DNA from: an archaeon
GTDB taxonomy: Archaea; Nanobdellota; Nanobdellia; Pacearchaeales; GW2011-AR1
Reading direction: 5' to 3'
Length of the DNA stretch: 64,000 nucleotides
NCBI GenBank assembly: GCA_043810775.1
Contig: JBDRNU010000003.1
Coordinates: 11,778 to 75,777 of the forward strand
Positions 13,837 to 13,986 of the stretch are shown here, in pieces (position 1 is the stretch's first letter; the number at the start of each line of letters is the position of its first letter). The notes beneath the pieces were generated by a model that ran no database searches, had not been told where the DNA came from, and worked only from the letters and a program-made list of their open reading frames with translations. Made by a program: the position numbers and the translations under genes.

Positions 13837-13986
13837 ATGATAAACAAAAGAGGATTGAGTAGATAACCTTTAGGAGGTTACCAACTGTCGAGACTAAATC
13901 TTACTTATGTAAGATATTATCTCAACGAATTAACTTCCTACAAGAGTTAGTTAATGATTAAAATGATAAATAAAAAAGGATTGAGT
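13837..13986 (+). repeat. 24-nt direct repeats (13837..13860 and 13963..13986, 22/24 identical) duplicating a pilin start codon region around a 102-nt insert
   Basis: atgataaaCaaaaGaggattgagt versus atgataaaTaaaaAaggattgagt. The upstream copy reads MINKRGLSR then TAA. Confidence 0.85.
13863..13962 (+). repeat. structured three-hairpin element, copy 1 (family shared with 30709..30789)
   Basis: Conserved arms ATAACCTTTAGGAGGTTACCAACTGTCG and AACGAATTAACTTCCTACAAGAGTTAGTTAAT. Hairpins at 13864..13880, 13890..13923 and 13929..13955. Confidence 0.7.

What the first reader, a model, noticed from the sequence alone, without database searches (positions are those of the whole stretch)
13863..13962. 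Undescribed ~80-100-nt three-hairpin RNA-like element present twice, with a covarying stem, a swapped central hairpin and an SD/anti-SD-like alternative pairing
The copies at 13863..13962 and 30709..30789 (both on the + strand) share conserved arms but differ in the following ways.
- Hairpin 1 (13864..13880 / 30710..30726) has a 6-bp stem and the loop UUAGG. Its outer pair flips from U-A to A-U between copies.
- The central hairpin is completely different in sequence and length. Copy 1 has the 7-bp ATCTTAC/GTAAGAT core within 13890..13923. Copy 2 has GTGCT/AGCAC at 30736..30749. In both, it is bracketed by identical CAACTGTCG and AACGAATTAAC.
- Hairpin 3 (13929..13955 / 30755..30782) is a 7-bp AUUAACU/AGUUAAU stem.
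- AGGAGGUU (13872..13879 / 30718..30725) can alternatively pair with AACUUCCU (13932..13939 / 30758..30765). That pairing is mutually exclusive with hairpins 1 and 3, which is switch-like.

AGGAGGU matches the local Shine-Dalgarno consensus (compare GAGGTGAT at 12407), yet no start codon follows within normal spacing. Both copies sit inside tight co-directional gene strings. A hairpin with the same UUAGG(AG) loop also occurs in the mre11-rad50 insert (sense strand of 49065..49087). On the opposite strand the element ends in a hairpin followed by a U-run (copy 2), so orientation is unresolved. Candidate roles are a small mobile structured element, a cis-regulatory switch or protein-binding site, or a small RNA gene.
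Basis: partly seen in the sequence, partly recalled or inferred. Interest (0 to 1): 0.7.

Follow-up and report, generated by a model that had tools for sequence, protein, structure and literature searches.

The report
Small mobile hairpin element, DPANN archaea
The two ~100-base three-hairpin segments are real copies of an apparently undescribed small insertion element found in several Pacearchaeota-like (DPANN) archaeal genomes. It lands at gene boundaries, and in three of twelve insertions examined a duplication of 18-27 bases rebuilt the interrupted gene end.

Summary
Both copies exist on the + strand with the hairpins described, and chance is excluded.

Public scans found 9 more intact copies and 2 degenerate ones in at least 8 DPANN (Pacearchaeota/Nanoarchaeota) sources.
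- All intact copies share (T)AGT + hairpin 1 (N-AACCT-TTAGG-AGGTT-N') + CCAACTGTCG. Hairpins 2 and 3 then keep their place and pairing but not their sequence.
- Four base pairs covary, with no G-U intermediates.
- There is no Rfam match, and neither strand has a consistent promoter or terminator.

The window's closest relative lacks the element at both syntenic sites and carries a decayed copy where the window has none.
- Copy 1 is a 126-nt insertion inside the 5' end of a pilin gene, and a 24-nt duplication rebuilds that end.
- Other copies show 27-nt (perfect) and 18-nt duplications of gene 3' ends.
- Eight of 13 copies begin within 5 nt of an upstream stop codon.

Best reading: a non-autonomous, structured, polar mobile element with a fixed 5' end and a variable 3' end. 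It is not a classical MITE, and its mobilising enzyme is unknown. The SD/anti-SD "switch" is significant in only 4 of 11 copies. Interest is moderate: a new variant of a known kind.

The parts
13837..13860 (+). Left copy of the 24-nt target duplication. It is the old 5' end of the pilin gene, ATGATAAACAAAAGAGGATTGAGT, and is now a 9-codon stub ending at a TAA formed with hairpin 1.
   Evidence: 22 of 24 identical to 13963-13986; no shuffle reaches the score; the relative L022 keeps the same stop-1nt-ATG junction with no insert.
13861..13962 (+). Element copy 1 (102 nt): AGA + hairpin 1 + CCAACTGTCG + hairpin 2 + CAAC-GA + hairpin 3 + GATTAAA.
   Evidence: Covariance model R1 scores it 58.1 bits, E 1e-13.
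13864..13880 (+). Hairpin 1 of copy 1: a 6-bp stem, loop TTAGG, outer pair T-A. It contains AGGAGGT.
13887..13926 (+). Hairpin 2 of copy 1: a conserved base GTCG/CAAC (C.A on +, U.G on -) and a copy-specific top holding a 7-bp palindrome.
13929..13955 (+). Hairpin 3 of copy 1 (ATTAACT/AGTTAAT). Its 5' arm and loop hold AACTTCCT, which can pair with AGGAGGTT.
13963..13986 (+). Right copy of the 24-nt target duplication. It is the working 5' end of pilin gene 13963-14454 (MINKKGLS...).
   Evidence: One search gives a weak Pilin_N match; the paralogues at 14487 and 14932 match clearly.
30707..30797 (+). Element copy 2, between the GTPase oapA-like gene (stop at 30702-30704) and the oapB/DUF2073 gene (ATG at 30809). 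AAT + hairpin 1 (30710-30726) + CCAACTGTCG (30727-30736) + hairpin 2 (30733-30752) + hairpin 3 (30755-30782) + a tail ATTCAAAATGATAAA shared with copy 1.
   Evidence: R1 scores it 73 bits, E 1e-17. It is absent from the orthologous spacer in L001, L002, L003 and L031.
26394..26450 (+). Empty site. This 57-nt spacer is syntenic with the place where the closest relative (L001 5552-5622) carries a degenerate copy of the element.

Best explanation
The two segments belong to a family of small (about 60-130 bp), non-autonomous, structured insertion elements found in Pacearchaeota/Nanoarchaeota-type DPANN archaea.

Shown:
- The element is a DNA insertion that is present or absent at orthologous sites.
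- It has a fixed 5' module: (T)AGT, hairpin 1, CCAACTGTCG and the base of hairpin 2.
- It has a 3' part of variable sequence that always keeps hairpins 2 and 3.
- Some insertions are flanked by long target duplications (18, 24 and 27 bp) that regenerate the interrupted gene end.
- Most copies start at or within 5 nt of the stop codon of a same-strand upstream gene.

Inferred:
- The invariant 5' module is the cis-acting site read by an unknown trans-acting enzyme that is not encoded in this window.
- Copying is polar. It starts or ends precisely at the 5' module and stops imprecisely at the other side. This would explain the variable 3' ends and why copy 2 carries 8-11 nt that form target sequence in copy 1.
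- The intermediate is single-stranded (DNA or RNA). This would explain why hairpins are kept by strictly Watson-Crick compensatory changes.
- In compact genomes, selection leaves only insertions that keep both neighbouring genes intact: just after a stop codon, or with a duplication that rebuilds a gene end.

Once inserted, the element is co-transcribed with its neighbours. Its stop codons in two frames and its strong SD-like hairpin may have side effects on expression, but these are not needed to explain it.
For: Family:
- An 18-20-nt core pattern found copies in one GTDB genome (the KR11 Nanoarchaeota MAG) and in 8 low-GC metagenome contigs.
- A covariance model found 2 further degenerate copies.

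Empty sites:
- The closest relative, GCA_043815245.1, has a 1-nt gap between the two orthologous pilin genes where the window has the 126-nt insert.
- The same relative lacks the element in the oapA-oapB spacer, as do L002, L003 and L031.
- That relative carries a decayed copy where the window has a 57-nt spacer.
- L030 lacks the KR11-type insert after aIF2-beta and ends its gene like the distal repeat.

Target duplications:
- win1: 24 nt (22 of 24 identical), reached by 0 of 500 shuffles.
- L017: 27 nt, perfect, reached by 0 of 500 shuffles.
- L011: 18 nt (17 matches and one 1-nt gap), p = 0.014.

Position:
- Eight of 13 copies begin within 5 nt of an upstream same-strand stop codon, counting win1 by its ancestral junction.

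Structure:
- 97.7% of cells are paired, 4 pairs carry double changes (18 cells), and there are no one-sided changes.
- A hairpin follows CAAC within 1-3 nt in every copy, with unrelated sequences.

Distribution and RNA evidence:
- Distribution is patchy. About 178 kb of related genomes fetched through protein homologues of window and L017 genes, not through a match to the element, holds one degenerate copy.
- There is no Rfam family.
- Three contigs end inside the element, as expected for a repeated or polymorphic segment.
Against: - No terminal inverted repeats, and no transposase, integrase, reverse transcriptase, HUH or Cas1-like gene among the 60 of 70 window ORFs scanned.
- Only 3 of 12 copies have a convincing flanking duplication, or 4 counting an 8-mer, so duplication may not be an obligatory product of the mechanism.
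- Copy number per genome is unknown and seems low: 2 in 64 kb here.
- All intact copies were found with an exact core pattern, so the core's invariance is partly ascertainment.
- Conserved architecture with covariation could equally reflect a function as RNA in each place.
- L016's 59-nt repeat, which contains hairpins 2-3 without the core, is not explained.
Confidence: 0.6

Rival explanations
1. It is a cis-acting element of the + strand mRNA that has a job where it sits. Examples would be a 5'-hairpin plus strong SD-like 'stabiliser' that parks a 30S subunit and blocks 5'-to-3' decay by RNase J, or a device that retains terminating ribosomes for the next cistron. It would spread by occasional duplication. 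This reading can co-exist with mobility.
For: - Ten of 13 copies are co-oriented with flanking genes.
- Eight begin at the upstream stop codon.
- Seven lie 7-35 nt upstream of a same-strand start codon.
- In L019 a BRE/TATA-like box lies about 25 nt upstream, which would put hairpin 1 at the 5' end of the mRNA.
- AGGAGGT is the strongest SD-like word in the window and is followed by no start codon.
- The long-range pairings contain G-U pairs that exist only on the + strand.
- RNase J and FttA are encoded in the window.
- Ribosomes bound at a strong SD block RNase J1 in B. subtilis (PMC5737220).
- Four of 13 copies lie in pilin gene clusters.
Against: - Orthologous genes in close relatives do without it.
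- L017 is antisense to both of its neighbouring genes. L011 lies between convergent genes and is antisense only to the gene whose 3' end was duplicated.
- Degenerate copies lose the SD-like loop but keep the hairpin.
- The anti-SD partner is significant in only 4 of 11 copies.
- Only about 18 of 70 window genes use an SD at all.
- No wobble pairs occur in the 13 modelled pairs of hairpins 1 and 2.
Confidence: 0.2
2. It is an independent small RNA gene on the minus strand. Its hairpin loop, CCUAA within ACCUCCUAA, would mimic the 16S anti-SD and titrate SD sequences.
For: - The minus strand folds slightly better (-31.1 and -22 kcal/mol).
- The invariant GTCG/CAAC base gives a U.G wobble on the minus strand but a C.A mismatch on the plus strand.
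- Copy 2 is followed by a T-run on the minus strand.
Against: - No recurrent TATA/BRE upstream and no oligo-T downstream on the minus strand across the 13 copies (sequences).
- The T-run of copy 2 is the complement of native A-rich sequence: the last Lys codons of the GTPase gene, its stop codon and the spacer up to the element.
- The long-range pairs with G-U favour the plus strand.
- The element is absent at orthologous sites.
Confidence: 0.05
3. It is a local two-copy duplication or a chance palindrome cluster with no wider meaning.
For: Only two copies occur in 64 kb, and the flanks are A-rich and of low complexity.
Against: - None of 100 shuffles gave any match.
- There are 11 further copies in other genomes and metagenomes.
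- The pairs covary.
Confidence: 0.01

Closest known systems
MITEs (miniature inverted-repeat transposable elements) of bacteria and archaea
   Same: Small, non-coding and non-autonomous. It inserts between genes, shows presence/absence polymorphism and folds into hairpins.
   Different: - No terminal inverted repeats.
- The ends are asymmetric: an invariant 5' module and a variable 3' part.
- Flanking duplications are long and of unequal length (18, 24, 27 bp) or absent, instead of a short fixed length.
- No parent IS was seen.
Rickettsia palindromic elements (RPE) and similar small palindromic repeats (from my own knowledge)
   Same: About 100-bp hairpin-forming selfish repeats in a reduced, compact genome. 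They sit next to or inside genes without destroying them, and one copy here (L013) lies in frame inside an ORF.
   Different: Unrelated in sequence and in a different domain of life. Here gene ends are rebuilt by duplication, and there is a strict 5' module.
IS1634/IS1549 group of the IS4 family
   Same: These produce long target duplications of variable length, 8-514 bp (PMC2266710).
   Different: They are autonomous DDE elements with terminal inverted repeats and a transposase. None of these features is seen here.
IS200/IS605-derived hairpin elements (PATEs) and REP/BIME repeats (from my own knowledge)
   Same: Strand-specific hairpin-based elements that move as single strands. They have a conserved short word at the left flank and no inverted terminal repeats.
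   Different: - Those make no target duplication.
- Both of their ends carry similar hairpins.
- No TnpA or RAYT gene is seen in the window.
- Here hairpin 1 starts directly after TAGT, which leaves no room for a guide segment.
SINE-type retroposons and target-primed reverse transcription (eukaryotic; from my own knowledge)
   Same: One precise end and one variable end, flank sequence carried along, variable-length target duplications, a possible truncated copy (L016), and small structured RNA-like units.
   Different: No A-tail or internal promoter, no reverse transcriptase identified, and nothing of this kind is known in archaea.
STAB-SD and 5'-hairpin mRNA stabilisers of Bacillus
   Same: A strong SD-like word with no start codon, next to a 5' hairpin and upstream of a cistron (PMC5737220).
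   Different: Those are fixed, gene-specific leaders, neither repeated nor mobile. The function was not tested here.

Membership tests
Any Rfam 15 RNA family | Covariance-model score at or above the gathering threshold | tested here: not met
   No hits in the whole window at gathering thresholds. Around both copies only chance-level hits, best E 0.42-0.98, all far below gathering.
tRNA / tmRNA | Cloverleaf detectable by ARAGORN | tested here: not met
   No genes found in the window.
MITE | Terminal inverted repeats at both ends | tested here: not met
   - The ends defined by the duplications in win1, L017 and L011 share at most a 5-7-nt RTRAAC-like word (sequences).
- The window subfamily has only internal, imperfect complementarity.
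MITE | Short target-site duplication of fixed length | tested here: not met
   Duplications are 24, 27 and 18 nt in three copies and not significant in the rest.
MITE | Autonomous parent IS with the same ends | tested here: inconclusive
   No transposase-like Pfam hit among the 60 of 70 window ORFs scanned. Whole genomes were not available.
IS200/IS605-derived PATE or REP | Insertion 3' of a fixed tetra- or pentanucleotide without duplication | tested here: inconclusive
   The left flank is TAGT in L011, L012b, L015, L018 and the degenerate L001 copy, and TAAGT, TAAT, TGGT, CAGT, CTAT, TAGA or AAAT in the others. However, three copies have long duplications.
IS200/IS605-derived PATE or REP | TnpA (Y1 HUH) or RAYT gene in the genome | not testable with these tools
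   None in the window. The genome beyond 64 kb could not be read.
Integron attC site | R''/R' core sites (RYYYAAC ... GTTRRRY) and cassette arrays next to intI | tested here: not met
   By eye, the 3' arm GTTAGTT and the other subfamilies do not fit GTTRRRY. There is no array and no integrase in the window. L012 has two copies flanking one gene, which is the only cassette-like trait.
SD-sequestering riboswitch-like switch | Alternative pairing conserved across the family | tested here: not met
   Significant in 4 of 11 copies only.
Retroposon (target-primed reverse transcription) | Variable-length target duplications with one fixed and one variable end | tested here: met
   for the duplications. 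for the invariant 5' module and variable 3' part. for the flank-like ATGATAAA carried by copy 2.
Retroposon (target-primed reverse transcription) | Reverse transcriptase in the same genomes, and an RNA intermediate | not testable with these tools
   No RT in the window. No transcript data.

The most novel reading that the evidence does not exclude
The elements are copied through a single-stranded, polar intermediate. The most novel version is a processed + strand RNA that is reverse-transcribed at a nicked target (SINE-like retroposition).

This would account for:
- the precise 5' end;
- the ragged 3' end that carries old flank sequence;
- duplications of unequal length (18-27 bp);
- the core-less partial copy in L016;
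- the inverted copy of the target next to the 3' junction in L011 and L017.

It would be the first retroposon-like, hairpin-defined element described in archaea.
Probability: 0.12. Interest if true: 0.85.

Novelty: new variant of a known kind. Interest (0 to 1): 0.55.

Why it matters
- DPANN archaea have tiny, gene-dense genomes, and I could find little in the searched literature about mobile DNA in them.
- A selfish element that survives there by landing at stop codons or by rebuilding the gene end it splits shows how insertions are tolerated at over 90% coding density.
- Its enzyme-free, asymmetric, hairpin-defined design points to an uncharacterised mobilisation mechanism.
- The invariant 30-nt module is a ready marker for strain typing and for finding that mechanism by co-occurrence.
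- For annotation, it explains short stub ORFs and odd spacers in pilin operons.

Tried and rejected
- **Rfam**, at gathering and permissive thresholds: nothing.
- **ARAGORN**: nothing.
- **Viral contigs.** A gapped pattern gave three chance hits inside GC-richer phage coding sequence, without hairpins 1 or 3. The core pattern gave none.
- **Three of the 11 metagenome hits** are chance matches in 46-66% GC contigs.
- **Copy 2's apparent flanking repeat**, AGCAAAAA(T)AAACT, is native A-rich coding sequence of both neighbouring genes and is not significant.
- **Coding potential.** The minus-strand frame 'DSWEPPKG' recurs only because the core is conserved, and the ORFs differ everywhere else.
- **Hammerhead-like core** (CUGANGA...GAAA), **K-turn**, **BHB intron motif**, **tRNA-like minihelix-CCA** and **attC boxes** were compared by eye. 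None fits, and none was pursued.
- **The hairpin at 49065-49087** is not a member.
- **A covariance-model scan of the window with filters off** found no third copy.
- **Look-up of the window's own OapB protein** in the contig index failed, so the rest of the source contig could not be read.
- **Literature searches** for DPANN/Pacearchaeota repeat elements found no description.

Full report
**1. The observation**

- Each has hairpin 1 (N-AACCT / TTAGG / AGGTT-N'), then CCAACTGTCG.
- Hairpin 2 follows. Its base GTCG/CAAC is shared and its top is unrelated between copies.
- Hairpin 3 is ATTAACT/AGTTAAT.

A 26-nt core pattern occurs exactly twice in 64 kb, and none of 100 shuffles gave any match, even with three mismatches allowed. 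Both copies fold better than shuffles on both strands with RNA parameters (z -3.0 to -5.1) and with DNA parameters (z -3.2 to -4.8). The DNA fold gives the three hairpins in all four cases.

Two things were missed.
- The similarity continues through AAAATGATAAA.
- Copy 1 is bracketed by a 24-nt direct repeat, 13837-13860 and 13963-13986, with 22 of 24 positions identical.

**2. Context**

The window comes from a low-GC DPANN archaeon of the Pacearchaeota/Nanoarchaeota type, judged from the names of OapB homologues.
- Copy 1 lies in a type IV pilus locus, between two pilin-like genes. The locus has pilins, a PilB-like ATPase at 16132-17682 and two PilC-like genes.
- Copy 2 lies between a GTPase gene and an oapB/DUF2073 gene.
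- None of the 60 of 70 window ORFs scanned against Pfam resembles a transposase, integrase, reverse transcriptase, HUH endonuclease or Cas1.
- There is no Rfam family and no tRNA.

**3. A family**

An exact 20-nt core pattern found one species-representative genome, the Nanoarchaeota MAG KR11, at two overlapping contig ends. An 18-nt pattern found 11 metagenome contigs. Eight of them are low-GC and carry the full architecture, and three are chance hits in GC-rich DNA. A mismatch scan added a second copy on L012.

In all 11 distinct intact copies the 26-nt core has at most one mismatch and is preceded by (T)AGT or a near variant. Part of this invariance is ascertainment, because the search pattern was exact. 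However, the 10 bases outside the pattern are also invariant.

Downstream, hairpin 2 keeps the GTCG/CAAC base with 3-4 variable pairs. A further hairpin follows CAAC after 1-3 nt in every copy, with at least six unrelated stem sequences that define subfamilies.

On a 10-sequence alignment, 97.7% of cells pair. Four pairs carry changes on both sides (18 cells) and none has a one-sided change. No shuffle and no slid register comes close, and RNAalifold agrees. Hairpin 1's outer pair is AU 4, GC 4, CG 1, UA 1.

A covariance model built from this alignment found two degenerate copies.
- L001 5554-5600 scores 28.6 bits.
- L009 5366-5393 scores 21.4 bits.
- Both keep hairpin 1 as a hairpin but have lost the SD-like loop.

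The model found nothing else in the window with filters off. It found only that one L001 copy in about 178 kb of related genomes that had been fetched through protein homologues of window and L017 genes, not through a match to the element.

**4. It is an insertion**

The window's closest relative is GCA_043815245.1, with OapB 88% and the ATPase 83% identical.
- Its two orthologous pilin genes are separated by one base (...TAG g ATG...). The window keeps the same junction (TGA t ATG at 13833-13839), followed by 8 codons of pilin, then the element, then the same 8 codons again and the rest of the gene. Copy 1 is therefore a 126-nt insertion made of 102 nt of element plus a 24-nt duplication of the pilin 5' end.
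- The same relative and three others lack the element between oapA and oapB.
- Conversely, that relative carries a decayed copy right after the stop codon of a PKD-domain gene, where the window has a 57-nt spacer.

In KR11/L017 a 91-nt element is flanked by a perfect 27-nt repeat, which is the 3' end of the aIF2-beta gene. The distal repeat keeps the ancestral ...ATTCAATAA ending. The same C-terminal protein ending (...AKHSVRAKIQ, with CAA as the last sense codon, then stop TAG) is seen in an 88%-identical relative that lacks the insert.

L011 has an 18-nt repeat spanning the overlapping ends of two convergent genes.

Against shuffled flanks the repeats are significant for win1 and L017 (0 of 500 shuffles each) and for L011 (p = 0.014). 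L013 has an 8-mer at p = 0.036. The other eight copies are not significant, including copy 2, whose apparent repeat is native A-rich coding sequence.

**5. Where it lands**

Eight of 13 copies begin within 5 nt of the stop codon of a same-strand ORF. In L012b, L015, L018 and L001 the stop codon is the TAG of the element's own TAGT.
- Seven copies lie 7-35 nt upstream of a same-strand start codon.
- One (L013) lies in frame inside an ORF.
- Two (L011, L017) abut the 3' end of an opposite-strand gene.
- Four copies sit in pilin gene clusters.

In genomes this dense, these are the places where an insertion does least harm.

**6. Polarity and unexplained details**

The left junction is precise: duplication, then 1-3 purines, then T, then hairpin 1. 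The right end differs between subfamilies.

Copy 2 carries ATGATAAA at its right end. In copy 1 this is the pilin start codon region and part of the target duplication. An 11-nt identity at a fixed offset has a probability of about 1e-5 at this base composition. This suggests that flank sequence was carried along, or that joining used microhomology.

In L011 and L017 the element is followed by an inverted partial copy (10 and 17 nt) of the duplicated target, forming a fourth hairpin with the right repeat.

L016 has a 59-nt repeat comprising hairpins 2-3 but no core, upstream of a full copy.

Three contigs end inside the element.

None of these details is explained by a cut-and-paste DDE mechanism. 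They fit a polar, single-strand-based copying process, but they do not identify it.

**7. RNA-level readings**

It is not significant in the other seven copies, so it is not a defining feature. Where present it includes G-U pairs possible only on the + strand. The invariant hairpin-2 base favours the minus strand instead (U.G versus C.A).

No promoter-like or oligo-T signal recurs on either strand, so a free-standing RNA gene is unlikely and the element is probably co-transcribed with its neighbours.

A stabiliser role, with a 5' hairpin plus a parked 30S subunit blocking RNase J as in Bacillus (PMC5737220), is a reasonable side effect or later co-option. It remains untested. Only about a quarter of the window's genes have an SD-like motif.

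**8. Comparison with known kinds**

It behaves like the small non-autonomous structured repeats: MITEs, RPEs, and REP/PATE elements. It fails the defining MITE tests, having no terminal inverted repeats and no fixed short duplication.

Long duplications of variable length have a precedent in IS1634/IS1549 (8-514 bp, mechanism unknown; PMC2266710), but those are autonomous elements with inverted repeats.

Literature searches found no description of such an element in DPANN archaea.

**9. Verdict**

This is a real, previously undescribed, structured mobile element family and a new variant of a known kind. The mechanism is unknown, and the most interesting open possibility is RNA- or ssDNA-templated polar copying. 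Confidence is 0.6 in the mobile-element reading. The cis-RNA function rival stands at 0.2 and is not mutually exclusive with it.

Noticed in passing
window 35631-35670 and 43416-43455 (minus strand): A 40-nt, 95%-identical leader, AAGGGAAAATACAAAAAAA(CC/TT)GTAGGTTGTTTTGAAAATG, lies directly upstream of the start codons of a TrmB-like regulator (34854-35639) and of FttA/aCPSF1 (41529-43424). It contains a hairpin CAAAAAAACC/GGTTGTTTTG, and the CC-to-TT difference keeps pairing through G-U. It may be a shared regulatory leader.
   Followed up: partly
L009 1-140 and L010 1-150 (KR11 MAG contigs JAHIEM010000113 and JAHIEM010000052): Both contigs end inside the element plus repeat. Contig 52 starts with C + repeat + element start, which is the junction expected for a tandem or circular form. 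It differs by only one base from the ordinary left flank, so it could also be a SNP.
   Followed up: no
L016 1-190 (minus strand of the locus): A 59-nt direct repeat containing hairpins 2 and 3 of the element occurs upstream of the full copy without the conserved core. It is preceded by a stop codon TAG-T and 29 unrelated bases. This is unexplained.
   Followed up: partly
L011 and L017, right after hairpin 3: An inverted partial copy (10 and 17 nt) of the duplicated target lies between the element and the right repeat. It makes a hairpin with the 3' end of the neighbouring gene.
   Followed up: partly
L013 (flipped coordinates 627-1229): One element copy lies in frame inside an open reading frame (...SRMPG-EPLGGSQLSDIKSNSG-RMPVGF...), as Rickettsia palindromic elements do. 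Whether the ORF is real across the element was not tested.
   Followed up: no
window 24057-25153: Six tandem units of about 165-189 nt lie inside the 832-aa ORF 23895-26393, giving a repeated domain in a large surface-type protein.
   Followed up: no
window 58290-58317 and 59493-59518: The same GAAAAAGGAGGTATAGA Shine-Dalgarno region precedes two consecutive genes, 58318-59517 (MFS) and 59519-60055 (GNAT).
   Followed up: no
L031 1649-4474 and L027 1-774: Relatives carry intein-containing RtcB and MCM genes, with Intein_splicing and LAGLIDADG domains. The window's RtcB (22425-23843, 472 aa) has no intein.
   Followed up: no
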